Shown here one piece after another: positions 33,531-45,045 of a DNA stretch of 64,000 nt. Origin of the DNA: Candidatus Enterousia sp. (GTDB lineage Bacteria > Pseudomonadota > Alphaproteobacteria > Rs-D84); assembly GCA_045606425.1 (NCBI GenBank), contig JAZURV010000004.1, forward strand, positions 120,987-184,986, written 5' to 3'. The notes under the pieces were generated by a model, which did not search any database, was not told the origin of the DNA, and worked only from the letters and a program-made list of their open reading frames with translations. Position 1 is the first letter of the stretch, and every line of letters starts with the position of its first letter. Both the position numbers and the translations under genes were made by a program.

Positions 33531-33560
33531 AAAAACGCCGCTCAACCGAGCGGTGTTTTT
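33531..33560. terminator. Bidirectional rho-independent terminator
   Basis: aaaaacgccgctcaaccgagcggtgttttt between convergent secB and paralog-A ORF. Confidence 0.7.
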
Positions 33561-33933
33561 ATTCGCAATATTTATTTTTATAAACTTCTATTGCTGTATC
33601 AAACCAAAAATATGGTTGATTTCGTGCACATAATTCCCGAACAAAAGAATCATAAATATCTGGTCTAAAAACCAAAAAATCACAAAAATACGCATTTACC
33701 AAATTCCATTCTGACGCAAACAGAAAAAGTTCGTCTGTGAATCCGTCCGCATAATCTTCCCTGTCCATAAAAAAGGTATCGCCATCTGTAAAGAAATAAA
33801 TCGTACCGCGCCTGTCCAGTGCACCAGATTGTGATATCATAAAAAACAACATTTTTGATGAAATGTCTTTTCTTACCGCACCTGGTGTTGTTCTTTGGAA
33901 ATTGACGCGCTTTATACAAATTGAATTTTCCAT
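33559..33933 (-). CDS. Hypothetical 124-aa protein, paralog A (about 80% identical to the 37197..37571 product)
   Basis: The probable start is the internal Met (MENSICIK) with an aggga SD. The frame is conserved between the two diverged copies. No recognised domain. Confidence 0.6.
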   Translation of the reverse strand: MENSICIKRVNFQRTTPGAVRKDISSKMLFFMISQSGALDRRGTIYFFTDGDTFFMDREDYADGFTDELFLFASEWNLVNAYFCDFLVFRPDIYDSFVRELCARNQPYFWFDTAIEVYKNKYCE

Positions 33934-34150
33934 ATTATCCCTGTCTTTTGTAAAAAACAAAGACCACTAAAAAATAAGTCGTCGGGGGTTAGAACAGCAT
34001 AGTAGTGAATGCTCCACCAAAGTGGCACCCCGCCCATAAGTCAGGGATATGGCACAAAAGCACCATAAACAGATTACGATGCTTATTGCACCGCACTACT
34101 ACGGGATGTTCTAAATCCCTAACCCAATTCCCATTGGATTCATGTATTAT
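33934..34150 (-). promoter_or_regulatory. Structured RNA leader/attenuator element, copy A
   Basis: About 200 nt upstream of paralog A. The 5' end carries the dyad CCAATTCCCATTGG (34124-34137). A multi-stem core includes P1 (GUAGUAGUG/CACUACUAU) and a CCAC-UUUG-GUGG hairpin. A weak terminator-like hairpin with U-run lies immediately before the start codon. It is homologous to copy B (36960..37196) with compensatory P1 changes. Confidence 0.6.
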
Positions 34151-34154
34151 TATA

Positions 34155-34205
34155 ATTGTGATTATTCAAAAAAGCAACTAAAAACGGCGCATCTGCGCCG
34201 TTCAA
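34155..34205 (-). terminator. Rho-independent terminator downstream of yebC
   Basis: Minus-strand hairpin aacggcgcagatgcgccgtt followed by tttagttgctttttt. Confidence 0.55.
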
Positions 34206-34309
34206 AAAACAAATTAGAATGATAAAGATGCGAAACCGTTGGTAAGCGTAGTGTAGTAGACCTACATGAGCGCACCAACGGCAAGCAGATTTATTATTAT
34301 AATTTGTTT

Positions 34310-35026
34310 TTACGCTGCGGCAGTGAATACTTTCTGAACATCATCATTCGCATCCAGCGCGTCAACCAATCTTTCAATTTTGGCATACGCTTCATCGTCT
34401 AAATCCATCGGCATATTTGGAACCCATGTGATTTCTGCGTTTTCTGGTTCACCCAATTTATCAGCCAATGCCTTTTGAATATTCATGAAATTATCTGGTT
34501 TTGTTGTGATTATGAAACCTTCTTCTGACGATTCCAGGTTATCTGCGTCAACTTCCATAACCAATTCCATCATTTCGTCTTCGCTTTTACCAATGGACGC
34601 CGGATACATAATCTGACCAACATGTGAAAACATGAAAACAACAGAACCTTCTTCGCCCATATTGCCACCGTTTTTGGCAAAAATATTACGAATTTCTGGC
34701 ACTGTACGGCGTGGATTATCGGTCAAGGCTTCTACAATAACAGGAACCGCGTTTGGGCCATAACCTTCATAACGCACTGCAACAAAGTTATCAGTATTTG
34801 CACCCGACGCCTTTTCAATTGCGCGTTTAATGTTATCGTTCGGCATAGACGCCTTGCGTGCCTGCAAAATTGCCAAACGCAATCTTGGGTTATTATCAGG
34901 ATTTTTATCACCCAATTTTGCCGCCATAGTTATTTCACGCGCCAGTTTAGTAAACAAACCACTGCGTGCCGCATCAACCAATCCTTTTTTGTGTTGGATG
35001 TTGTGCCATTTACTGTGTCCACTCAT
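34310..35026 (-). CDS. yebC: YebC/PmpR family DNA-binding transcriptional regulator
   Basis: 238 aa; MSGHSKWHNIQHKKG N-terminal signature. Confidence 0.9.
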   Translation of the reverse strand: MSGHSKWHNIQHKKGLVDAARSGLFTKLAREITMAAKLGDKNPDNNPRLRLAILQARKASMPNDNIKRAIEKASGANTDNFVAVRYEGYGPNAVPVIVEALTDNPRRTVPEIRNIFAKNGGNMGEEGSVVFMFSHVGQIMYPASIGKSEDEMMELVMEVDADNLESSEEGFIITTKPDNFMNIQKALADKLGEPENAEITWVPNMPMDLDDEAYAKIERLVDALDANDDVQKVFTAAA

Positions 35027-35076
35027 ATTTGACCTTTTGATTTAATTATATTAAAATTACACCAAAAGGATAACAA

Positions 35077-35646
35077 ATGATTGGAAAATTGCAAGGCGTA
35101 ATTGACTATATCGGTTCTGATTTCGTTATTTTGATGGCTGGACCCGTTGGGTACAAGGTCTATACGCCGGAAATCTTGACATTAAAGTCAACTGTCGCGC
35201 TTTGGATTGAAACGATTGTGCGCGAAGATTCTATAAGGTTATTTGGGTTTTCAACCATTGCCGGACAAAACCTGTTTAATCAACTGACCACCGTGTCTGG
35301 CGTTGGGCCAAAGGTTGCCATGGCGATTATGGGAACAATAAAAACAGATACACTTATGTCGGCGATTGCAACCGGCGACGCAAAAACAATCGCAACTGCC
35401 CCGGGGGTCGGGAAAAAAGTTGCTGAAAAAATCATAGTTGAATTAAAGAATAAAATGGGTGGTGCTGCGTTTGATTTTGGCACCGACAACAGCGGCGCCC
35501 TGCCCGATTTATTGGCGGCACTGGAATCCCTTGGTTATCGCCGTATGGATATTATCGACATGGCACAAAAATTGGTATCCAATAATCCAGACGCAAATGT
35601 TGCAAAACTGGTACCATTGGCATTAAAAGAAATAAGCGGTAAATAA
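35077..35646 (+). CDS. ruvA: Holliday junction DNA helicase RuvA
   Basis: 189 aa; MIGKLQG start and HhH motifs. Confidence 0.9.
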   Translation: MIGKLQGVIDYIGSDFVILMAGPVGYKVYTPEILTLKSTVALWIETIVREDSIRLFGFSTIAGQNLFNQLTTVSGVGPKVAMAIMGTIKTDTLMSAIATGDAKTIATAPGVGKKVAEKIIVELKNKMGGAAFDFGTDNSGALPDLLAALESLGYRRMDIIDMAQKLVSNNPDANVAKLVPLALKEISGK

Positions 35647-35649
35647 AAT

Positions 35650-36942
35650 ATGAATAACGATACAATATTTGCTTTATCAAGCGCACATGGAAAATCTGGT
35701 GTTGCAGTTATACGCATCAGCGGAAATGATTTGTCTGGTTTATTTAAACGCATTATAAACAAACCAGAATTTGAATCGCGTCACGCCTATTTCACAAATT
35801 TTCGCGATGATAACGGCAATTTAATCGACCAATGTATTGCTATATTTTTTGCCGCGCCAAATTCTTTTACTGGCGAAGATATTATTGAAATTCATTCACA
35901 TGGCGCACCGGCTGTTATAGATAAAATATTTGATTTTTTGCGCGGGCTTGGCGCACGAATTGCACAGCGCGGTGAATTTTCACGACGCGCATTTTATAAC
36001 AACAAAATGGATTTAACAGATGTCGATGGTTTAATCGCCCTGCTTGATGCACAAACAGATAAACAACGCGAATCCGCCCTTAAATCTTTAACAGGTGGCG
36101 ATTCAATCATGTATAAAAATTGGCGCGATAAAATGATTGAAATATCTGCCTATGCGGCGGCAATCCTGGATTATGACGCAGATGATTTACCAAAAGATAT
36201 CGATAAAAAAATATTACTGGAAACACAAAATTTATTAAAAGAAATCACAGAATCGACATCTAATTATCGCGCGTCGCGTGCAATTCAAAATGGGTTTAAT
36301 ATCGTTCTGGTTGGTGAAACAAATGTTGGAAAATCGTCCATCTTTAATAAATTGGTTGGTTCAAATCGTGCGATAGTTTCCGATATTGCCGGAACCACAC
36401 GTGATGTAGTGTCCCAACAAATAGATATTGACGGATATCTGGTAAACCTGTCCGATACGGCGGGAATCCGCGAAGCAACAGATGCTGTTGAAAAAATTGG
36501 CATTGAACGCACTCATGAAGAAACAAGAAATGCAGATTTAATTATCCATGTTTATAACGAATTGCCAAAAACAATAAACGAAAATGAAATCATCGTTATA
36601 AACAAAAGCGATTTATTAAAAAACAAATCAAACAAAAATGTAATTTATACATCGGCGAAAAATGGCGCGGGTTTTGATGAATTATTAAACGCAATTAAAA
36701 CAAAAATGCATGAATTGATGGGCGGGGCTGAATCTAAAATCACAATCAACGAACGCACATACGAATTATTAAATGAAACCATTTCCGAACTAAGAAATGC
36801 AATAAATAAATACGACGGCAATTATGATATCTTTGCAGAACATGTCCGTCGTGCAGGTGATGCAATTGGAAAGATTTTGGGGGTAATAACAACGAATGAA
36901 ATCGCCGATGCTACATTTTCAAGATTGTGTCTGGGGAAATAA
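35650..36942 (+). CDS. mnmE: tRNA modification GTPase MnmE (TrmE)
   Basis: 430 aa; G domain GETNVGKSS and C-terminal CLGK. Confidence 0.92.
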   Translation: MNNDTIFALSSAHGKSGVAVIRISGNDLSGLFKRIINKPEFESRHAYFTNFRDDNGNLIDQCIAIFFAAPNSFTGEDIIEIHSHGAPAVIDKIFDFLRGLGARIAQRGEFSRRAFYNNKMDLTDVDGLIALLDAQTDKQRESALKSLTGGDSIMYKNWRDKMIEISAYAAAILDYDADDLPKDIDKKILLETQNLLKEITESTSNYRASRAIQNGFNIVLVGETNVGKSSIFNKLVGSNRAIVSDIAGTTRDVVSQQIDIDGYLVNLSDTAGIREATDAVEKIGIERTHEETRNADLIIHVYNELPKTINENEIIVINKSDLLKNKSNKNVIYTSAKNGAGFDELLNAIKTKMHELMGGAESKITINERTYELLNETISELRNAINKYDGNYDIFAEHVRRAGDAIGKILGVITTNEIADATFSRLCLGK

Positions 36943-36959
36943 ATACATTTGCTTTTCTA

Positions 36960-37196
36960 AATAATCCAATTTATAATAATATATGAATCCAATGGGAATT
37001 GGGTTTGGGATTTAGAACATCTCTCTATCTAGGCGGTGCATAAAGCATCGTAATCCGCTTATGGTGCTTTTGTGCCATATTCCCTGACTTATGGTCGGGG
37101 TGCCACTTCGGTGGAGCATGCCTAGATATGCTGTTCTAACCCCCGACCGCTTGTTTTTTTCAGCGGTCTTTGTTTTTTACAAAAGACAGGGATAAT
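36960..37196 (+). promoter_or_regulatory. Structured RNA leader/attenuator element, copy B
   Basis: Dyad CCAATGGGAATTGG (36989-37002). P1 is AUCUAGGC (37027-37034) pairing with GCCUAGAU (37120-37127), enclosing sub-hairpins including CCAC-UUCG-GUGG. A terminator hairpin gaccgc..gcggtc (37145-37168) plus T-run ends 16 nt before the ATG at 37197. Confidence 0.65.
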
Positions 37197-37571
37197 ATGG
37201 AAAATTCAATTTGTATAAAGGGCGTCAATTTCCAAAGAACAACACCAGGTGCGGTAAGAAACGATATTTCATCAAAAATGTTGTTTTTTATGATATCACA
37301 ATCTGGTGCACTGGACAGGCGCGGTACGATTTATTTCTTTACGCCAACCGGCGCTTACTTTATGGAACTGGAAGATTATACAGCCGAATTCAAAGATGAA
37401 CTTTTTATATTCACATCAGAATGGAATTTGGTAAATGCATATTTTTGTGATTTTTTGATTATAAGACCAGATGTTTATGATTCTTTTATTCACGAATTAT
37501 GTGCAAAAAACATTCGTGATTTTTGGTTTGATACGGCAATAGAAATTTATCGAAATAAATATTGCGAATAA
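37197..37571 (+). CDS. Hypothetical 124-aa protein, paralog B
   Basis: MENSICIKGVNFQRTTPG...; about 80% identical to paralog A. It is oriented away from the central yebC-ruvA-mnmE segment, mirroring copy A. Confidence 0.6.
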   Translation: MENSICIKGVNFQRTTPGAVRNDISSKMLFFMISQSGALDRRGTIYFFTPTGAYFMELEDYTAEFKDELFIFTSEWNLVNAYFCDFLIIRPDVYDSFIHELCAKNIRDFWFDTAIEIYRNKYCE

Positions 37572-37600
37572 AAAAACGCCCAAACGGGCGTTTCTTTATT
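37571..37600. terminator. Bidirectional rho-independent terminator
   Basis: aaaaaacgcccaaacgggcgtttctttatt between paralog B and the convergent fadD-like gene 1. Confidence 0.7.
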
Positions 37601-39176
37601 CTTTTCTGTCTGGATATTTACCATTTATCAAATTCTTGCGCACTTCGTGGTGTTTAATCTTTTGAGTGCTGGTCATCGGCAAATCTTCCGTTGTCATCGC
37701 AAAATGGGTCACCCATTTATAGGATGCAACTTTTTTATTTTGTTCTGCGATTTCTTTGGAAAGTTTATCCATTGTCATATCTTTGTCGACACTGAAAACC
37801 CCATATGAAACAGTCTTGTCCCCAACCTTGTGTTCAAAGACAGCAACATTTTTAACGCCTTCGATTTCCAGATAAAGTGCTTCCAATTCATCAGGATAAA
37901 CATTTTTACCGCTGTCCAAAACAATTACTTGTTTTTTACGGCCGGCAAAGTGCAATTCGCCATTTTTATCCATGTACATCATGTCCCCAGTATTAAACCA
38001 ACCGTCTTGGTCAAATACAGTCGCATTGACTTCATCATTATTCAGATATCCATTAAACACCTGATGTCCACGCAACCATAAAACACCAACGCCATTTTCA
38101 TCTTTGTCGCGAATTTCGCATTCATTATTAGATGTTGGCGCCCCAACTGAATAAGCCAATCTTTTATTTGTTGGTTTGGAAATACAGATTGGTCCAACAG
38201 TTTCAGTCAAACCGTATCCCTGAATAAATGCCAGACCAAGCGATTCATAGAAATTTTCAACCTCTGGCTTGGTCGCGGCACCACCTGCAATCAGCAACTT
38301 TGCGCGTCCACCAAAAACATTTAACAAAGGTTCCTGAACTTTACGGACAAAGAAATCCAATCCCATATCTTTCAATGTTTTTTGGTTTCTTAAAATAAAT
38401 GATGCGACACGCCATTTATTTTGTTCTTTCATTGTTGTTATAATCTTGTTACGGAACAATTCCCAAACACGTGGAACGGCAGGTATAACATGCGGTTGGA
38501 ATTTCTTGAAATCGTCCAAGATATATTTTGGATTTATTGTTGGCTGCAAAACGAGTGACGCACCATAATGAATTGTTGCCAAAATACCGATTGCAAAACC
38601 GAATATATGATACAGTGGCAAAAATCCATACATAACATCACCAGAATGGAAATATTCAGACATATCTTCCAATGAATTTGCGCATTCTGTTAAATTAAAG
38701 TGTGTCAGTGGCACAACCTTTGGTGTTCCGGTTGACCCAGATGTAAACGACAGCGTCGCAACATCTGTGGATTCAGACGGATATGGGCGCAAATCATAAT
38801 CTATGTCGCCATCTTTTTTTGTTATGTCATAGAATTTAAATTTGTCTGTTTTATAAAAGAACGATGGTTCTGCGCACACAAATTTGCACCCCACGATTTC
38901 ACACATTTTATCATATTCGATTGGTGTTAAATTTGTATCCAGCATCAAAACCGTTCCACCCAAATACCATACCGCAAACAAAGTCAATGGGAACTGGGGC
39001 AAATTATGCGATAAAACACCAACAATATCGCCATGTTTGATACCCATTTTATTTAATGTTGCTGCACGGGCGCGAACCTGGTCTATAAATTGTGCATAGG
39101 TCACATTTTCACGAACCAGAAACAAATTTTCCGGCCATTGGTTCACTGCGTTTTCTAATTTTTGATACATATTCAT
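37596..39176 (-). CDS. AMP-dependent synthetase/ligase (long-chain acyl-CoA/acyl-ACP synthetase, FadD-like), copy 1
   Basis: AMP-binding motifs TSGSTGTPKVV, YGLTE, GWFNTGD, GRKKQVIVLDSGKNVYPDELE and C-terminal LPMTSTQK. The probable start is MNMYQKL at 39176; the ORF-track N-terminus extends 12 aa further to 39212. Confidence 0.8.
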   Translation of the reverse strand: MNMYQKLENAVNQWPENLFLVRENVTYAQFIDQVRARAATLNKMGIKHGDIVGVLSHNLPQFPLTLFAVWYLGGTVLMLDTNLTPIEYDKMCEIVGCKFVCAEPSFFYKTDKFKFYDITKKDGDIDYDLRPYPSESTDVATLSFTSGSTGTPKVVPLTHFNLTECANSLEDMSEYFHSGDVMYGFLPLYHIFGFAIGILATIHYGASLVLQPTINPKYILDDFKKFQPHVIPAVPRVWELFRNKIITTMKEQNKWRVASFILRNQKTLKDMGLDFFVRKVQEPLLNVFGGRAKLLIAGGAATKPEVENFYESLGLAFIQGYGLTETVGPICISKPTNKRLAYSVGAPTSNNECEIRDKDENGVGVLWLRGHQVFNGYLNNDEVNATVFDQDGWFNTGDMMYMDKNGELHFAGRKKQVIVLDSGKNVYPDELEALYLEIEGVKNVAVFEHKVGDKTVSYGVFSVDKDMTMDKLSKEIAEQNKKVASYKWVTHFAMTTEDLPMTSTQKIKHHEVRKNLINGKYPDRKE

Positions 39177-39330
39177 TTTAATATCCTTTTTGTTTACTTT
39201 TTCGCTCGACACACAATAAAAAAAATCAAAAAAATCTTGTGAACTTCAATTTTTTAAGCTTTTTTTAATTGTGTGTTCTCGTATTCGCTCGCTTGGCACA
39301 ATTTGTGCCGGCTGCGCGGATAACGCAACG

Positions 39331-39362
39331 ATTGCGGAAGCAGTATTCACTGCTTCCGCAAT
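39331..39362. repeat. Perfect 13-bp-stem palindrome between fadD-like copies 2 and 1
   Basis: attgcggaagcag-tattca-ctgcttccgcaat lies 7 nt after the fadD-like-2 stop. There is no downstream U-run on the minus strand. Nearby palindromes are ggcacaatttgtgcc (39293-39308) and acacacaatt/aattgtgtgt (39199-39208 / 39268-39277). Confidence 0.5.
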
Positions 39363-39368
39363 CTGCTT

Positions 39369-40949
39369 TTATTCATGTCTGTTTGTATATTTACCGTCTA
39401 TCAACCATTGACGAACAACATGATGTTTAATTTTTTGAGTACTGGTCACCGGTAAATCGTCGGTTGTCATCGCAAAATGTGTCACCCATTTATAGGACGC
39501 AACTTTTTTATTTTTTTCTGCGACTGCGGCGGCCAATTTATCCATTGTCATACCTTCTTCGACACTGAATACGCCGTATGCGACGGTTTTGTCATTTACT
39601 TCATGTTCAAAAACCGCAACACTTTTTACACCATCGATTTCGATAAACAAGGCTTCCAATTCATCAGGATAAACATTTTTACCACTGTCCAAAACAATTA
39701 CTTGTTTTTTACGACCAGCAAAATGCAATTCGCCGTTTTTATCCTGCCATACTAAATCACCAGTACAGAACCAGCCATCTTTGTCAAACGATTCTTTATT
39801 CGCAGCATCATTATTTGCGTACCCGCCAAAGATTTGATTGCCACGAACCCACAGCATACCAATACCATCTTCGTCTTGGTTGCGAATTTGGATTTCAGTA
39901 TCACCCATCGGCGCACCAAATGCGTATGGCACACGTTTTTTCAGCGGGCGCGAACAACAGATTGGCCCCACAGTTTCGGTCATACCATAACCCTGAACGA
40001 ATGCCATTCCCAGTTGAGTATAGAATTTTTCAACCTCTGGTTTGGTCGCGGCACCACCTGCAACCAACAGACGCGCGCGTCCACCAAAAATTGCGCGAAT
40101 TTGATTCAAAACTTTATCAACCAGTTTTGACATACCCATTGCACGCAACAATTTTTGATTATTCATTACAAACGATACCAATCCCCATTTCTTTTTTGCC
40201 TTGATACCATCGATAATTTTCTTGCGGAAAATTTCCCACAACTTTGGCACCGCAGGAATAACCTGGGGTTTATATTGTGCAAAATCCGCCATAATTGCAT
40301 TTGGATTTATTGTTGATTGCAACAAAATTCCCATACCAAAATGCAACGGTGCCAAAAATCCAACTGCGAATCCAAACACATGGTACAATGGTAAAAAAGC
40401 ATAGAACATTTCACCAGGGCGCAACCACTGATTCAAATATTCCAAATTATCAGAACAAGAAACCAGATTAAAGTGTGTCAACGGCACAACCTTTGGCGTT
40501 CCAGTTGACCCCGATGTAAACGACAATGTTGCAATATCGCTGTCTTTCAATGGGTATGGCTTTAAAGATTCATCGTTTTTTTCGTCTTTCGTTTCAATAT
40601 CAAAAAACTTAAAGCCCTTTGCATCATAAAAGAAAGATTTTTCTGCACATACAATTTTACAACCTGTTATTTCGGTCATATTATCATATTCTGCAGAGGT
40701 TAAATTCGTATCCAACAACAAAACCGTTCCGCCCAGGTACCATATAGCGAACAAAGTTATTGGAAACTGTGGCAAATTATGCGCCAACAAACCAACAACA
40801 TCGCCCGGTTTTACACCCGCATCACGCAAAGTTGTCGCACGTGCCTGAACCAATTTCACTAATTCTTTAAATGTGACATTTTCACGAACCAAAAACACAG
40901 TTTCTGGGTTTCTTTCCACATTTTTTTCTAATAACTGATACATATTCAT
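39369..40949 (-). CDS. AMP-dependent synthetase/ligase (FadD-like), copy 2
   Basis: 526 aa with the same motif set (TSGSTGTPKVV, YGMTE, GWFCTGD, LPVTSTQK). Its ATG overlaps the TAA of copy 3 by 1 nt (TAATG). Confidence 0.8.
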   Translation of the reverse strand: MNMYQLLEKNVERNPETVFLVRENVTFKELVKLVQARATTLRDAGVKPGDVVGLLAHNLPQFPITLFAIWYLGGTVLLLDTNLTSAEYDNMTEITGCKIVCAEKSFFYDAKGFKFFDIETKDEKNDESLKPYPLKDSDIATLSFTSGSTGTPKVVPLTHFNLVSCSDNLEYLNQWLRPGEMFYAFLPLYHVFGFAVGFLAPLHFGMGILLQSTINPNAIMADFAQYKPQVIPAVPKLWEIFRKKIIDGIKAKKKWGLVSFVMNNQKLLRAMGMSKLVDKVLNQIRAIFGGRARLLVAGGAATKPEVEKFYTQLGMAFVQGYGMTETVGPICCSRPLKKRVPYAFGAPMGDTEIQIRNQDEDGIGMLWVRGNQIFGGYANNDAANKESFDKDGWFCTGDLVWQDKNGELHFAGRKKQVIVLDSGKNVYPDELEALFIEIDGVKSVAVFEHEVNDKTVAYGVFSVEEGMTMDKLAAAVAEKNKKVASYKWVTHFAMTTDDLPVTSTQKIKHHVVRQWLIDGKYTNRHE

Positions 40950-42547
40950 TATAAACGCTCCCGTAATTTACTGGTATTTTCTGGATATTTGCCATCGATA
41001 AGATTCTGGCGCACTTCATGATGTTTAACCTTTTGTGTACTGGTCATTGGCAAATCATCAGTAGTCATCGCAAAATGGGTCACCCATTTATACGGCGCAA
41101 CCTTACGATTAGCCAGCGCAACTTGCGCCGCCAGTTTCAAAAAACTCATCCCCTTGTTCACCTGGAATACAGCATATGTGACGGTTTTATTTTTTTCTTT
41201 GTGTTCAAAAACTGCGACATTTTTTACGCCATCTATTTCCATGAACAATGCTTCCAATTCATCCGGATAAACATTTTTACCACTGTCCAGAACGATAACT
41301 TGTTTTTTGCGTCCTGCAAAATGATACTGTTTATTTTTATCCAGATAGACTAAATCACCGGTATTAAACCAACCGTCTTTGTCGAATGATTCAGAATTTG
41401 CCTCTGCATTATTCAAATATCCATTAAAGACATTTGGTCCGCGCACCCACAGTGTTCCAATACCTTTTTCATTGGCATCACGAATTGTGCATTCTGAACA
41501 ACCAATTGGTGTTCCAAACGCGAACGGCACACGATGTTTCGACGGACGCGAACAACAGAATGGCCCAACCGTTTCAGTCATACCATATCCCTGAACAAAG
41601 GTGATTCCCAATGATTCATAGAATTTTTCAACCTCTGGTTTTGTCGCGGCGCCGCCCGCAATCATCAAATTCACACGCCCACCAAAGATGTCACGCAACG
41701 GTTTTTGTACCTTTTTAACCAGTTTACCCAACCCAATTGCACGCAAAAACTTTTGCCGACGCAATACGAAAGACACAAACCACCACATATGTTTTTCTTT
41801 GACCCCGCTGATGATTTTATTACGGAACACTTCGTAAAGGCGCGGCACCGCCGGAATACAGTGTGGTTTATAAACCCTAAAATCTTCCAATATATTTTTT
41901 GGATTTACGGTTGGCTGTAATAAAATTCCCATGTGGAAATACATAGGTGCCAAAATACCACCTGCAAAACCGAATATATGATACAGCGGCAAAAAACCAT
42001 ACATTATTTCGTTTTTATGAATCCATTGTCCCATATCTGCGTAATAATCAGACGAACTTTTCAGATTTCCATGCGTCAGTGGCACAACCTTTGGATTGCC
42101 AGTCGAACCTGATGTAAAGGACAGCGTTGCAATATCATCAGATTTCAAATCTGCAGGTTTCACATTGGCATCGGCTGCATCATCAGTGCTTTGTATATCA
42201 AAGAACTTAAATCCCCTGGCCTTGTAAAAGAATGATTTTTCGGCGCACACGAATTTGCACCCCACCCTTTTGGTCATATTATCATATTCGAACGGTGTTA
42301 AATTTGTATCCAACAACAAAACCGTACCACCCAAATACCATATCGCGAAAAGTGTCAATGGAAATTCTGGAATATTATGCGCCAACAAACCAACGACATC
42401 GCCCTGCTTTACCCCGGCGTTATGCAAAGTCGTCGCGCGTGCATGAATCAAATCCAGCGCCATTTTAAATGTGATTTTTTCGCGTACCAAAAACAAAGCA
42501 TCTGGCGATTCTTTCGCCACTTGCTTGAACACTTGATACATATTCAT
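40949..42547 (-). CDS. AMP-dependent synthetase/ligase (FadD-like), copy 3
   Basis: 532 aa with the same conserved motifs (TSGSTGNPKVV, YGMTE, GWFNTGD, LPMTSTQK). Confidence 0.8.
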   Translation of the reverse strand: MNMYQVFKQVAKESPDALFLVREKITFKMALDLIHARATTLHNAGVKQGDVVGLLAHNIPEFPLTLFAIWYLGGTVLLLDTNLTPFEYDNMTKRVGCKFVCAEKSFFYKARGFKFFDIQSTDDAADANVKPADLKSDDIATLSFTSGSTGNPKVVPLTHGNLKSSSDYYADMGQWIHKNEIMYGFLPLYHIFGFAGGILAPMYFHMGILLQPTVNPKNILEDFRVYKPHCIPAVPRLYEVFRNKIISGVKEKHMWWFVSFVLRRQKFLRAIGLGKLVKKVQKPLRDIFGGRVNLMIAGGAATKPEVEKFYESLGITFVQGYGMTETVGPFCCSRPSKHRVPFAFGTPIGCSECTIRDANEKGIGTLWVRGPNVFNGYLNNAEANSESFDKDGWFNTGDLVYLDKNKQYHFAGRKKQVIVLDSGKNVYPDELEALFMEIDGVKNVAVFEHKEKNKTVTYAVFQVNKGMSFLKLAAQVALANRKVAPYKWVTHFAMTTDDLPMTSTQKVKHHEVRQNLIDGKYPENTSKLRERL

Positions 42548-44091: not shown

Positions 44092-44802
44092 TTATTCGGA
44101 CAAAGACCAACTTTCTTCCACCGGTTCCGCCAACGGGTAATAACAAGTGACTGGTTGACCGGCGGCATATCTTTCCGCCAACCACGTATTAAATTCTGTT
44201 TGATTTGCAAATCTGCTATCTGTGACATTAAATTGAATTGTATTATTTTCACTTGCACCTAAATAGAATGTGTTATTTTTGACCAGTCCCCATTTCTGAT
44301 AATTCGAATAATAATTGCAAATAGGGACATCTTGTTTTATTGAACGTTGAACATTGCTTGTTAAGGTCCCTGAGATACAATAAAAACTATCTGGGCCAAA
44401 CCAGTTTTCTCTCCAGCTTTCGTTTCCTTTTAGTATTAATACTCCGACACGACGTGTAATTTTTTCACTGGAAGGATTATATTCGTCAGCTACGAAATCT
44501 TCCCCACTGCCCAATGCGCGCAAAACAGTATCGCCCAGTTGATAAAATACTGGTTCTATGGGATTTGTCGGGGTTGGCGTCCCAGATTGTGACCAAGTGC
44601 CGGTTATAACACCATAATTCCATCCGACAAATGTATAACCGTATTTTGTTGGCGACGTTTGCGGAATTATCAGATTGCCACCTGATTCACAGGTGCTGGT
44701 TGAATATGTTGTGTCTCCTACTTTCCAATTTACATTTATTGTTTCGGCAAATACGATATTGCATATTAAAACCACACCAAAAAACACGAAAAACTTCTTC
44801 AT
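44092..44802 (-). CDS. Secreted protein with Listeria-Bacteroides-repeat-like motif
   Basis: The probable start is MKKFFVFFGVVLICNIVFA (ATG at 44800-44802; the ORF-track extension uses TTG). It contains YGYTFVGWNY. Confidence 0.55.
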   Translation of the reverse strand: MKKFFVFFGVVLICNIVFAETINVNWKVGDTTYSTSTCESGGNLIIPQTSPTKYGYTFVGWNYGVITGTWSQSGTPTPTNPIEPVFYQLGDTVLRALGSGEDFVADEYNPSSEKITRRVGVLILKGNESWRENWFGPDSFYCISGTLTSNVQRSIKQDVPICNYYSNYQKWGLVKNNTFYLGASENNTIQFNVTDSRFANQTEFNTWLAERYAAGQPVTCYYPLAEPVEESWSLSE

Positions 44803-44814
44803 CCTTGTCCCCCG

Positions 44815-45045
44815 TTTTTGCAAACAAAAAACCGCCAAAGGAATTTTAGGCGGTCGGGGAGTTGGTAAATCACATTGTTATAGATTTCCGCGCCTTACGG
44901 TAAGCGGCTCCCCAACCTTGTTAGTTAGGGATGATAACGGTGCAAAAAACACCAAAAATATCAAATTAACGATGCATTTGCACCGAACAATGTGGGCTAC
45001 CACAGCCCCGAACCCAATCCCTTGGATTCATTTGTATCATATCAT
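44815..45045 (-). promoter_or_regulatory. Structured RNA leader / sRNA-like element, copy C
   Basis: The 5' end AUGAAUCCAAGGGAUUGGGUUCGGGG (dyad CCAATCCCTTGG 45014-45025) and the 3' end CCCCGACCGCC-loop-GGCGGU + UUUUUGUUUG terminator (44831-44856) match elements A and B; the middle differs. It ends about 12 nt upstream of the 44092..44802 gene. Confidence 0.5.

What the first reader, a model, noticed from the sequence alone, without database searches (positions are those of the whole stretch)
33559..37571. About 640-bp inverted-repeat cassettes (leader RNA + 124-aa ORF) flank yebC-ruvA-mnmE: potential invertible/recombinogenic segment
Cassettes A (33559-34150, minus) and B (36960-37571, plus) are reverse complements of each other. 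By eye they are roughly 85-95% identical, and nearly identical through the leader and the first ~50 codons, which is consistent with gene conversion. They bracket a 2.8-kb segment containing yebC, ruvA and mnmE, with both ORFs transcribed outward.

Homologous recombination between them would invert the central segment. ruvB is missing after ruvA, and yebC is separated from ruvC by about 2.7 kb.
Basis: partly seen in the sequence, partly recalled or inferred. Interest (0 to 1): 0.6.

Follow-up and report, generated by a model that had tools for sequence, protein, structure and literature searches.

The report
Inverted paralogous leader-RNA gene cassettes
Two inverted copies of a small self-contained gene module (promoter, about 190 nt of folded leader RNA, 124-aa protein gene) flank yebC-ruvA-mnmE in a reduced gut alphaproteobacterium; the copies trade sequence by recombination, there is no sign of a programmed DNA switch, and the leader RNA is probably a new regulatory RNA family.

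Summary
Window 33553-34177 (-) and 36949-37577 (+) form a 635-nt inverted repeat, 87.6% identical, around a 2.77-kb yebC-ruvA-mnmE segment.

Each arm is a complete module: a conserved TTGCTT-17-TATAAT promoter, a leader RNA of about 190 nt, an attenuator hairpin with a U-run, and a 124-aa orphan protein gene under purifying selection.

Relatives (Ca. Enterousia, order Rs-D84) show that copy A, next to secB, is the ancestral site. Copy B, next to the acyl-CoA ligase genes, occurs in only some lineages.

The two copies clearly exchange sequence. Identity is mosaic, synonymous divergence is six times lower in codons 1-50 than in codons 51-124, and a second species has ORFs that are 100% identical at both sites.

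The central segment is inverted in one related lineage. That lineage has a single cassette, and its breakpoint lies outside the cassette. Every two-cassette contig has the window's orientation, and no recombinase gene is nearby. "Recombinogenic" is therefore supported; "invertible switch" is not.

The leader is the most interesting part. Twelve long-range base pairs covary perfectly, the fold looks bistable (terminator versus antiterminator), its 3' half resembles sRNA-Xcc1 below Rfam's threshold, and a third copy (44823-45034) precedes an unrelated secreted-protein gene.

The parts
33553..34177 (-). Cassette A (promoter, leader, 124-aa ORF). This is the ancestral, syntenic site between yebC and secB.
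   Evidence: Inverted-repeat arm. The same site is occupied in L001, L010, L012, L016, L017, L020 and L031.
34149..34177 (-). Promoter A: -35 TTGCTT (34177-34172), 17-nt spacer, -10 TATAAT (34154-34149).
   Evidence: Read. The TTG..-17-TATAAT arrangement is conserved in all 23 leaders. The simple consensus scan does not flag it because the -35 matches only 3 of 6 positions.
33952..34142 (-). Leader RNA A. Elements: H1 34141-34121; H2 34119-34103; long-range strands 34114-34108 with 33995-33989 (PKa) and 34102-34094 with 34007-34000 (PKb); H4 34046-34040 / 34035-34028; H5 34013-33996; P1 3' strand 33988-33981; attenuator hairpin 33983-33962 followed by a U-run to 33952.
   Evidence: Fold z-score -5.85. 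Covariation on 21 homologues. nhmmer 103 bits.
33559..33933 (-). ORF124-A, an orphan 124-aa protein.
   Evidence: 34 homologous clusters at 55-97% identity. Conserved motifs. dN/dS 0.07-0.44. AlphaFold2 model pLDDT 88.8. No hit in Pfam, PHROGs, PADLOC, PDB or BFVD.
33538..33553 (-). Terminator after ORF124-A.
34205..34311 (.). Palindromic element of about 105 nt downstream of yebC, followed by a terminator at 34185-34200. It is not part of the repeat, but it lies at the rearrangement-prone boundary.
   Evidence: Inverted repeat I7. The same element follows yebC in all O1 relatives and also sits in the AMP1/mnmE spacer of L017 and L020.
34310..35026 (-). yebC (TACO1/YebC family).
   Evidence: Pfam 1.7e-52.
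35077..35646 (+). ruvA
   Evidence: Pfam RuvA_N and HHH_5.
35650..36942 (+). mnmE
   Evidence: Pfam TrmE_N and MnmE_helical.
36949..37577 (+). Cassette B, a secondary copy inserted between the mnmE stop codon and the terminator it shares with the first acyl-CoA ligase gene.
   Evidence: The site is empty in L001, L010 and L012 and occupied in L027, L019/L028, L030 and L033.
36949..36977 (+). Promoter B: -35 TTGCTT (36949-36954), 17-nt spacer, -10 TATAAT (36972-36977). It begins 6 nt after the mnmE stop codon.
   Evidence: Read.
36984..37179 (+). Leader RNA B. Elements: H1 36985-37006; H2 37007-37023; PKa 37012-37018 with 37133-37139; PKb 37026-37034 with 37120-37128; H4 37082-37088 / 37093-37100; H5 37115-37132; P1 3' strand 37140-37148; attenuator hairpin 37145-37168 followed by a U-run to 37179.
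   Evidence: Fold z-score -6.25.. nhmmer 101 bits.
37197..37571 (+). ORF124-B (identical to P0004), 79% identical to ORF124-A.
37574..37593 (.). Bidirectional terminator shared by ORF124-B and the first AMP-binding gene (37596-39212, -).
37156..37342 (+). Most recent gene-conversion tract, paired with 33788-33974. It is 97% identical and contains perfect runs of 77, 56 and 40 nt.
44823..45034 (-). Third copy of the leader RNA family (leader C), with its own helix sequences. It lies upstream of a 236-aa signal-peptide protein gene (44092-44802, -).
   Evidence: nhmmer 94.8 bits, E = 4e-28. Sequence read. Downstream ORF and Pfam.

Best explanation
The repeat arms are two paralogous copies of a self-contained expression module.

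The module. A sigma-70-type promoter drives a structured leader RNA of about 190 nt. The leader ends in an attenuator hairpin with a U-run 25-30 nt before the Shine-Dalgarno sequence and ATG of a 124-aa cytoplasmic protein of unknown function.

The two copies. Copy A sits at the ancestral site, conserved across Ca. Enterousia (Alphaproteobacteria, order Rs-D84, genomes under 1 Mb). Copy B is a secondary insertion, in inverted orientation, found in some lineages.

Recombination. The copies share perfect runs of up to 77 nt, so they recombine by RecA-type homologous recombination. The demonstrated outcome is repeated, patchy gene conversion (shown). A crossover would invert yebC-ruvA-mnmE and swap the leaders between the two ORF 3' ends (inferred as possible, not observed). 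This is not a programmed switch.

Proposed leader mechanism (inferred). The leader works as a bistable transcription attenuator.
- OFF state. A long-range helix (PKa plus PKb) closes a multi-branch domain. Helix H4 sequesters GGUYGGGG, so the terminator GACCGCY/RGCGGUC forms and only the leader RNA is made.
- ON state. Hairpins H2 and H5 re-form, and GGUYGGGG pairs with CCCCGACC (P1). This gives an sRNA-Xcc1-like fold that consumes the GACC of the terminator stem and allows read-through into the ORF.

The signal that flips the switch is unknown.
For: Repeat and anatomy.

Ancestral versus secondary site:
- L001, L010, L012, L016, L017 and L020 have only the A-site cassette in the same gene order.
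- The empty B site shows the mnmE stop directly followed by the shared terminator.
- B-site cassettes occur in L027, L019, L030 and L033.

Gene conversion:
- Three-way site patterns.
- dS of 0.08 against 0.48.
- In a second species, about 470 nt (attenuator, ORF and downstream terminator) are 100% identical between the A site (L031) and the B site (L030), while the leaders are of different types.
- The L001 A-site ORF is nearly identical to the L027 B-site ORF (dS 0.056).

Homologous recombination is feasible: perfect runs of 77, 56 and 40 nt.

The leader is a real structured RNA:
- Fold z-scores of -5.9 and -6.3.
- Across 21 homologues, all 5 PKa pairs and all 7 PKb pairs change on both sides, with 99% and 85% of cells paired.
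- There are 132 doubly changed cells against 47.7 +/- 5.1 in shuffles (0 of 500 shuffles reach the observed value) and 24-55 in slid controls.
- A and B differ in PKb in a fully compensatory way.

Attenuator logic:
- The P1 3' strand and the terminator 5' arm share GACC.
- The H4 3' strand is the same as the P1 5' strand.
- There is no room for a separate ORF promoter.
- The MFE of all three window leaders is the terminator state. The fold with P1 enforced shows H2 and H5 and is 8-14 kcal/mol less stable.

Link to sRNA-Xcc1: the 3' domain of a relative's leader scores 44.9 bits, E = 5e-7, against RF02221.

The protein is real.
Against: - No contig shows the segment inverted between two cassettes, so crossover is untested.
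- The contigs are short-read metagenome assemblies, and linkage across a 470-nt identical repeat can be mis-resolved.
- The attenuator hairpin has a 10-12-nt loop, and the simple terminator scan does not call it. The -35 hexamer is weak.
- P1 is invariant, so covariation neither supports nor refutes it.
- Support for H2 and H5 is only moderate (1 and 2 pairs changed on both sides in the MAFFT register).
- PKa/PKb together with H2/H5 could form one pseudoknotted fold instead of two alternative states.
- No ligand, protein partner or expression data exist.
- The mechanism and number of B-site insertions are unresolved. The B junctions differ between the window/L027 (6-nt spacer) and L030 (about 60 nt).
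Confidence: 0.72

Rival explanations
1. Crossover between two cassettes caused the inversion seen in the RUG12675 lineage (L004/L009, L002). A two-cassette ancestor would have inverted the segment by homologous recombination and later lost the cassette on the acyl-CoA ligase side.
For: - Both orientations exist with fixed flanks.
- The two-cassette state occurs in at least two species, so it may be old.
- L002 combines a winB-type PKb (CUAGGC/GCCUAG) with a winA-type ORF 3' end, as a crossover would predict.
- Perfect identity runs are long enough for homologous recombination.
Against: - The 160-nt AMP1-yebC spacer of L004 has no cassette remnant; the only matches are 9-13 nt and look like chance.
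- In L004 and L002 the mnmE-to-promoter junction carries a palindromic terminator. Its left half matches the mnmE/AMP1 terminator of L001 and its right half matches the cassette-upstream terminator of L016. This places the breakpoint outside the cassette.
- L004's leader has the winA-type PKb, which is not the predicted type.
- The scenario needs an extra, precise loss event.
Confidence: 0.2
2. The segment is a programmed, phase-variable invertible element. The inverted repeats would be recombination sites that switch expression of the flanking or enclosed genes.
For: Inverted repeats with outward-facing promoters bracket a short segment.
Against: - The arms are 625-nt diverged gene copies, not short recombinase sites.
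- No recombinase family appears among the genes within about 10 kb in the syntenic loci or next to the repeats.
- Inversion would not uncouple either promoter from its ORF.
- All two-cassette contigs have one orientation.
- Many relatives lack the second arm.
Confidence: 0.03
3. The cassette is a selfish or defence-type RNA-protein module, comparable to a type III toxin-antitoxin pair or to the sRNA-Xcc1/symE integron cassettes. Copy B would then arise from the module's own mobility, the RNA would neutralise or gate a toxic protein, and the terminator would set the RNA-to-protein ratio.
For: - The architecture (promoter, structured RNA, terminator, small ORF) matches type III TA logic.
- The duplicated unit is exactly promoter to stop codon.
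- ORF124 cassettes occur at at least four different genomic sites.
- sRNA-Xcc1 lies upstream of symE in Xanthomonas integron cassettes (bioRxiv 10.1101/2025.06.18.660453).
- A bona fide sRNA-Xcc1 lies 38 nt upstream of a same-strand CDS on a Pseudomonas plasmid.
Against: - The leader has no tandem repeats.
- ORF124 has no match in PADLOC, Pfam or PHROGs and no similarity to ToxN or SymE.
- The A-site cassette is syntenic and vertically inherited across species 20-30% diverged, in genomes under 1 Mb. That is atypical for addiction modules.
- The same leader also precedes an unrelated secreted-protein gene.
- No transposase, integrase or attC-like ends are present.
Confidence: 0.12
4. Copy B is an assembly artefact: a chimeric or duplicated join in a metagenome-assembled genome.
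For: The window appears to come from a MAG. P0004, which is identical to ORF124-B, is from an NCBI contig of 195 kb. Repeats are typical sites of assembly breaks; L019, L034 and L035 all end at the repeat.
Against: - The arms differ at 12% of positions, so they are not collapsed or duplicated reads.
- The same mnmE / cassette / AMP1 junctions are assembled independently in L027, L019/L028 and L029, and in another species in L030 and L033.
Confidence: 0.03

Closest known systems
sRNA-Xcc1 (Rfam RF02221), an integron-, transposon- and plasmid-borne RNA of Xanthomonas and other Proteobacteria
   Same: - The 3' domain of the Enterousia leaders has the same outer helix (GGUYGGGGAG ... CUCCCCGACC, compared with GUCGGGAG ... 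CUCCCGAC in a bona fide member).
- It encloses two hairpins.
- In most relatives the first hairpin carries the AUACAA internal loop and a GNRA-capped stem (44.9 bits, E = 5e-7).
- Like sRNA-Xcc1 in Xanthomonas cassettes (upstream of symE) and on plasmid NZ_CP093017.1 (38 nt upstream of a BRO-family CDS), it lies directly upstream of a same-strand ORF.
   Different: - No leader reaches the gathering score of 53 bits.
- Window copies A, B and C give no hit at all at E <= 10 or E <= 1, because the first hairpin is replaced (A/B: GCCAC-UUYG-GUGG).
- The Enterousia RNAs carry an extra 5' domain of 90-120 nt (H1, H2, H3, H4). It pairs with the loop of the second hairpin and with the joining strand, and it competes for the outer helix. 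A separate terminator follows.
- sRNA-Xcc1 is described as an 88-nt trans-acting sRNA (PMC2996969).
Riboswitches and other transcription-attenuating 5' leaders (terminator/antiterminator expression platforms)
   Same: - A conserved, covarying structured domain lies upstream of a coding region.
- Mutually exclusive helices share strands with a hairpin plus U-run placed just before the RBS.
- Several copies in one genome precede different genes.
   Different: - No ligand or effector is known.
- There is no match to any Rfam riboswitch family.
- The best-supported helices are hypervariable in sequence and private to each copy, which is unusual for an aptamer core.
- The terminator loop is unusually long.
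Concerted evolution and inversion between inverted paralogues (for example tufA/tufB of Salmonella and rrn operons; cited from my own knowledge, not checked here)
   Same: Inverted gene copies are homogenised in patches by RecA-dependent gene conversion, and crossovers between them can invert the intervening chromosome. Mosaic tracts and long perfect runs are seen here.
   Different: - The copies here are only 2.8 kb apart and 88% identical.
- Conversion repeatedly spares the leader's sensor part in one species and the ORF's 3' part in another.
- An inversion between the copies has not been observed.
Type III toxin-antitoxin loci (ToxIN-like)
   Same: The order is promoter, non-coding RNA, terminator, small protein gene. 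The terminator could set the RNA-to-protein ratio.
   Different: There is no tandem-repeat antitoxin RNA, the protein has no known toxin family or fold, and the cassette is chromosomal, syntenic and vertically inherited.

Membership tests
sRNA-Xcc1 (RF02221) | Covariance-model score at or above the curated gathering score (53 bits). | tested here: not met
   Window copies: no hit at gathering, none at E <= 10 for A and B, none at E <= 1 for C. Seven relatives gave no hit at gathering. The best relative, L005, scored 44.9 bits, E = 5e-7. Positive control: a Pseudomonas plasmid scored 72.6 bits.
sRNA-Xcc1 (RF02221) | An outer helix P1 that encloses two hairpins. | tested here: inconclusive
   P1 complementarity is present in all 21 leaders (85.7% of cells in the MAFFT register) but is invariant, so there is no covariation. 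The second hairpin (H5) is present. The first hairpin is present in different forms.
sRNA-Xcc1 (RF02221) | A first hairpin with the AUACAA internal loop and a GNRA-capped CCC/GGG stem. | tested here: not met
   Absent from window copies A, B and C. Present in L005, L012, L013 and L014-type relatives.
Programmed invertible DNA switch (inverton, shufflon) | A site-specific recombinase encoded nearby. | tested here: not met
   No recombinase, integrase or invertase Pfam family appears among the genes within about 10 kb in the syntenic loci L001 and L004 or among the immediate neighbours. The rest of the window was not scanned protein by protein.
Programmed invertible DNA switch (inverton, shufflon) | Both orientations coexist within a population of one strain or species. 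| tested here: not met
   The window and L027 (same species) are both O1. In the second two-cassette species, four contigs with both flanks are all O1. This rests on few short-read contigs, and no read-level data were available.
Programmed invertible DNA switch (inverton, shufflon) | Inversion changes which gene is coupled to a promoter. | tested here: not met
   Each arm carries its own promoter, leader and ORF facing outward. A crossover would only exchange ORF 3' parts and flip the three enclosed genes together with their own signals.
Riboswitch-like transcription attenuator | A conserved secondary structure supported by compensatory changes. | tested here: met
   All 12 long-range pairs change on both sides. 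There are 132 doubly changed cells against 47.7 +/- 5.1 in shuffles (0 of 500) and 24-55 in slid controls.
Riboswitch-like transcription attenuator | An intrinsic terminator whose stem shares nucleotides with an alternative helix, located between the structured domain and the RBS. | tested here: met
   GACC is shared by the P1 3' strand and the terminator 5' arm. The terminator stem covaries at 2 pairs. The U-run ends 18-20 nt before the Shine-Dalgarno sequence. The function as a terminator is inferred, not shown, and the simple scan does not flag it.
Riboswitch-like transcription attenuator | A defined ligand or effector that shifts the equilibrium. | not testable with these tools
   No ligand can be inferred. 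The downstream genes (ORF124 twice, and a secreted protein with a weak List_Bact_rpt match) have no known function.
Type III toxin-antitoxin | An antitoxin RNA made of tandem direct repeats. | tested here: not met
   TRF finds only trivial 8-9-nt arrays, all outside the leaders.
Type III toxin-antitoxin | A toxin of the ToxN, CptN or TenpN type. | tested here: not met
   No relevant hit in PADLOC, Pfam or PHROGs. No significant fold match in PDB or BFVD by Foldseek.
Inverted paralogues under concerted evolution | Mosaic identity with discrete tracts that contradict orthology. | tested here: met
   Site patterns, dS contrast, 100% identical ORFs at the two sites in a second species.

The most novel reading that the evidence does not exclude
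The leader of about 190 nt may be a previously undescribed class of bistable cis-regulatory RNA built around an sRNA-Xcc1-type core. A 5' domain would clamp the core through two long-range helices whose sequences are private to each copy, and would toggle a terminator. The family would control a small regulon (ORF124 twice, plus a secreted protein) in gut symbionts with genomes under 1 Mb. By extension, the widespread integron and plasmid sRNA-Xcc1 elements would be cis-acting leaders of the ORFs downstream of them, not trans-acting sRNAs.
Probability: 0.4. Interest if true: 0.72.

Novelty: new variant of a known kind. Interest (0 to 1): 0.5.

Why it matters
As genome dynamics the locus is ordinary. 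Inverted paralogues homogenise each other and mark a rearrangement-prone spot, which is worth knowing when assembling or comparing Enterousia MAGs.

The greater value lies in the leader RNA.
- It is retained in three copies within 64 kb of a genome that has shed most of its non-coding DNA.
- Its covariation is unusually clean: 12 pairs that differ in nearly every lineage yet remain complementary.
- It has the layout of a terminator/antiterminator switch.
- It ties the poorly understood sRNA-Xcc1 family to a cis-regulatory role.

If confirmed, it would add a new regulatory RNA class and a testable handle on two orphan gene families in uncultured gut symbionts.

Tried and rejected
- Rfam at gathering and at permissive thresholds on the window and on relatives' leaders gave only the sub-threshold sRNA-Xcc1 hit. 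The other matches were terminator look-alikes.
I used nhmmer instead.
- Exact-sequence look-ups of ORF124-A and ORF124-B found no record.
- A pattern scan of viral contigs for the P1/H5 core returned three hits in 65-66% GC contigs, inside coding regions and without nhmmer similarity. They are spurious.
- I searched for a remnant of a second cassette in the L004 and L001 spacers and found only chance matches of 9-13 nt.
- I first read L004's ORF as a simple chimera of the B 5' part and the A 3' part produced by crossover. I dropped this because its leader carries the A-type PKb and its junction differs from the window's B junction.
- GC skew simply follows gene strand and does not date any inversion.
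- SymE or AbrB-like identity for ORF124 has no sequence support, and the predicted topology is a mixed alpha/beta fold of about 120 aa.

Full report
**1. The observation**

The repeat finder lists five collinear inverted-repeat blocks covering 33553-34177 and 36949-37577. blastn merges them into a single 635-nt alignment at 87.6% identity and finds no other copy in the window. MAFFT gives 90% mean column identity.

The arms bracket 2771 nt that hold yebC (34310-35026, -), ruvA (35077-35646, +) and mnmE (35650-36942, +), all confirmed by Pfam. Each arm ends in a 124-aa ORF (ATG 33933 and 37197) transcribed away from the centre.

No RuvB Walker-A motif exists in the window.

**2. Anatomy of one arm**

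Reading, each arm contains, in order:
- TTGCTT, a 17-nt spacer and TATAAT;
- about 7 nt to the likely transcription start;
- about 190 nt of leader;
- a 7-bp hairpin (GACCGCU ... AGCGGUC in B) followed by UUUGUUUUUU;
- about 18 nt, then AGGGA, then the ATG.

There is no room for a separate ORF promoter, so the ORF must be expressed by read-through of that hairpin. This is an inference from the sequence.

The leaders fold far better than shuffled controls (z = -5.85 and -6.25). The two places where A and B differ most are complementary to each other within each copy: GUAGUAGUG/CACUACUA in A and UAUCUAGGC/GCCUAGAUA in B.

**3. The protein**

ORF124 has 34 homologous clusters at 55-97% identity, all from uncultured Alphaproteobacteria. 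An exhaustive profile search of 1.84 billion representative proteins finds only 12 at E <= 0.001. Two of these are C-terminal domains fused to DUF192.

Evidence that it is a real, folded protein:
- conserved motifs such as SQSG..DRRG and YFCDF;
- dN/dS of 0.07-0.44;
- an AlphaFold2 model with pLDDT 88.8.

It has no match in Pfam, PHROGs or PADLOC and no significant fold match in PDB or BFVD. Its function is unknown.

**4. Who carries it, and where**

Genome-collection hits name Candidatus Enterousia and related MAGs. This is a genus of order Rs-D84 with genomes below 1 Mb and about 90% coding density (PMC12306168).

With the flanks held fixed (three acyl-CoA ligase genes on one side; secB, mltA, dciA, ruvC, an MFS gene and recA on the other), three states occur.

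State 1: one cassette next to secB, with the order mnmE-, ruvA-, yebC+ (orientation O1, the same as the window).
- Seen in L001, L010, L012, L016, L017/L023 and L020.

State 2: O1 with a second, inverted cassette between mnmE and the first ligase gene.
- Seen in the window and in L027, L019/L028 and L029 (the same species as the window: mnmE 97% and AMP1 99% amino-acid identity).
- Also seen in a different species, with B-site contigs L030 and L033-L035 and A-site contigs L031 and L032.

State 3: one cassette next to secB but with the three genes inverted (O2).
- Seen in L004/L009 (MAG RUG12675) and in L002/L003.

O1 with one cassette is found in the most divergent genomes and is therefore the likely ancestral state. 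ruvA followed directly by mnmE is common to the whole clade.

ORF124 cassettes also occur at other sites:
- between efp and a DNA-alkylation-repair gene (L005-L008);
- next to a peptidase U32 gene (L039-L043);
- between an unknown 245-aa gene and secB (L044).

**5. Do the two arms recombine?**

Yes, at least by gene conversion.

- I compared winA, winB and the B-site orthologue in L027. From just after the attenuator to about codon 45, 24 sites have winA = winB but differ from L027. In the ORF's 3' two thirds, 32 sites have winB = L027 but differ from winA. In the leader body, 18 sites have winA = L027 but differ from winB.
- Synonymous divergence between A and B is 0.08 in codons 1-50 and 0.48 in codons 51-124.
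- In the second two-cassette species, about 470 nt (attenuator, ORF and downstream terminator) are 100% identical between the two sites. The leaders there are of different structural types.
- The A-site ORF of L001 is almost identical to the B-site ORF of L027 (dS 0.056), although L001 has no B-site cassette.
- Perfect A/B runs of 77, 56 and 40 nt exceed what RecA-type recombination is generally held to need. That threshold is from established knowledge and was not tested here.

**6. Do they invert the segment?**

This is not shown.

- Every contig with a B-site cassette and both flanks, and every A-site partner, is O1. These are only a few short-read assemblies, and linkage across identical repeats can be mis-resolved.
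- The O2 genomes have one cassette, and the 160-nt AMP1-yebC spacer of L004 contains no cassette remnant.
- In L004 and L002 the mnmE stop is followed by AAAAACACCGGCAUUUGCCGGUUUUU and then the promoter. The left half of this terminator matches the mnmE/AMP1 terminator of L001, and the right half matches the terminator upstream of the cassette in L016. The window's B junction has only 6 nt and no terminator.

The O2 breakpoint therefore maps to a palindromic terminator outside the cassette. A palindromic element of about 105 nt (window 34205-34311) also sits at this boundary in all O1 genomes, and in the other boundary in L017 and L020. The boundary upstream of the cassette promoter is rearrangement-prone regardless of whether a second cassette is present.

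A route through a two-cassette intermediate followed by loss of one copy cannot be excluded. I give it about 0.2.

No recombinase is encoded nearby. A crossover would not uncouple any promoter from its gene, so a programmed switch is very unlikely.

**7. The leader RNA**

All 23 distinct leaders collected share the promoter, a 5' hairpin H1 (GAAUCCAAUGGGAAUUGGGUUC), a hairpin H2, a hairpin H3 (CGGUG ... CAUCG), H4 (CCCYRACC/GGUYGGGG), a variable hairpin, H5, the motif CYCCCGACC and the attenuator.

Two long-range helices stand out.
- PKa pairs the H2 loop with the strand 3' of H5.
- PKb pairs the strand 3' of H2 with the H5 loop.
- Together they use at least 8 and 10 different sequences across lineages and stay complementary.

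On alignment A3, all 5 PKa pairs and all 7 PKb pairs change on both sides. They are 99% and 85% paired, and the misses are alignment-register errors. For the whole structure there are 132 doubly changed cells, against 47.7 +/- 5.1 in shuffles (0 of 500) and 24-55 when partners are slid.

H2, H5, H4 and the attenuator also show compensatory changes, though fewer. P1 (GGUYGGGG with CCCCGACC) is invariant.

Strand sharing defines the switch. The H4 3' strand is also the P1 5' strand, and the last four nucleotides of the P1 3' strand (GACC) begin the attenuator stem. PKa and PKb consume the loops and 3' strands of H2 and H5. Two coherent states follow.
- OFF: PKa + PKb + H4 + terminator.
- ON: H2 + H5 + P1, with the terminator disrupted.

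ViennaRNA predicts the OFF state as the MFE for all three window leaders. With P1 enforced, the fold shows H2 and H5 and is 8-14 kcal/mol less stable.

I therefore propose a default-off, bistable transcription attenuator. The alternative is that all helices coexist as a double pseudoknot.

**8. Relation to known RNAs**

Rfam has no family for the leader. The exception is that the 3' domain of L005's leader matches sRNA-Xcc1 (RF02221) at 44.9 bits, E = 5e-7, below the 53-bit gathering score. The ON-state fold (P1 enclosing two hairpins) is the sRNA-Xcc1 architecture.

The window's own copies lack the AUACAA/GNRA hairpin and do not match at all. Membership is therefore not met, but homology of the core is plausible.

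sRNA-Xcc1 was described as an 88-nt sRNA (PMC2996969). In Xanthomonas integron cassettes it lies upstream of symE (bioRxiv 10.1101/2025.06.18.660453).

A bona fide member (72.6 bits) on P. aeruginosa plasmid NZ_CP093017.1 lies 38 nt upstream of a same-strand BRO-family CDS. Its second hairpin is complementary to that CDS's Shine-Dalgarno region. This is a single example, but it fits a cis-regulatory role for the family.

**9. A third copy**

nhmmer with the leader alignment finds a third leader at 44823-45034 (-), at 94.8 bits and E = 4e-28. It has its own PKa (UGGUA/UACCA) and PKb (ACAUUGUU/AACAAUGU).

It lies between an AddB-like nuclease gene and a 236-aa signal-peptide protein with a weak Listeria-Bacteroides repeat match. 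The leader is thus a multi-copy regulatory element that is not tied to ORF124. This argues against a dedicated RNA-antitoxin role.

**10. Verdict**

As a genome-rearrangement finding it is ordinary. The structured leader is the noteworthy element. It is probably a new regulatory RNA family, or a strongly extended variant of sRNA-Xcc1. Overall interest is 0.5.

Noticed in passing
window 44823-45034 (-), with downstream ORF 44092-44802 (-): A third copy of the leader RNA family, missed by blastn. It has its own compensatory helix sequences and lies upstream of a 236-aa signal-peptide protein (weak List_Bact_rpt match), not upstream of an ORF124.
   Followed up: partly
window 34205-34311; also L010 9482-9698 (two tandem copies), L017 1660-1765 and 5624-5726, L005 8912-9019: A palindromic element of about 105 nt (AT-rich arms around a GC-rich hairpin). 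It recurs downstream of yebC in all O1 relatives and in other intergenic spacers. There is only one copy in the window and no Rfam match. It may mark the rearrangement-prone boundary.
   Followed up: partly
L026 1419-1604 (Ga0247609_10150631): This leader is a chimera. Its 5' half is like L024 and its 3' half is like L001, so both long-range helices are mismatched. It is either a natural recombinant with a broken fold or a metagenome assembly chimera.
   Followed up: no
L030 1953-2364 vs L031 2631-3042: In a second species the A-site and B-site cassettes are 100% identical from the attenuator through the ORF and its terminator (about 470 nt), yet they carry leaders of different structural types. 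The same protein would sit under two different leader variants.
   Followed up: partly
L047 1498-1620 (P. aeruginosa plasmid NZ_CP093017.1): A bona fide sRNA-Xcc1 (72.6 bits) lies 38 nt upstream of a same-strand BRO-family CDS. Its second hairpin (CCCUCUGCUUGG) is complementary to the CDS's ribosome-binding region (CCAAGCAGAGG). This hints that sRNA-Xcc1 acts in cis. It is a single example.
   Followed up: partly
window 37596-42547 (-): Three tandem paralogous AMP-binding (acyl-CoA ligase-like) genes of 526-538 aa. One 300-nt stretch is repeated at 79% identity (37595-37894 / 39368-39667). The array is conserved in all relatives.
   Followed up: no
L017/L023 3140-4292: An insertion of about 1.15 kb lies between mnmE and ruvA in this lineage. 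The two genes are adjacent elsewhere. Its content was not examined.
   Followed up: no
L044 2-739: In one lineage an unknown 245-aa gene (no Pfam match) lies upstream of the secB-side cassette, in place of yebC or mnmE. This is a third arrangement at that boundary.
   Followed up: no
P0040, P0042 (remote homologues, not in the window): ORF124-like domains occur as the C-terminal half of 266-273-aa proteins whose N-terminal half is DUF192 (PF02643). This is the only domain association found for the family.
   Followed up: partly
window 36940-36948 and 37567-37576: Cassette B is bounded by the pentamer AATAA on both sides: the end of mnmE (...GAAATAA) and the end of the ORF (...GCGAATAA). This could be microhomology at the insertion, or chance in AT-rich DNA.
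   Followed up: no
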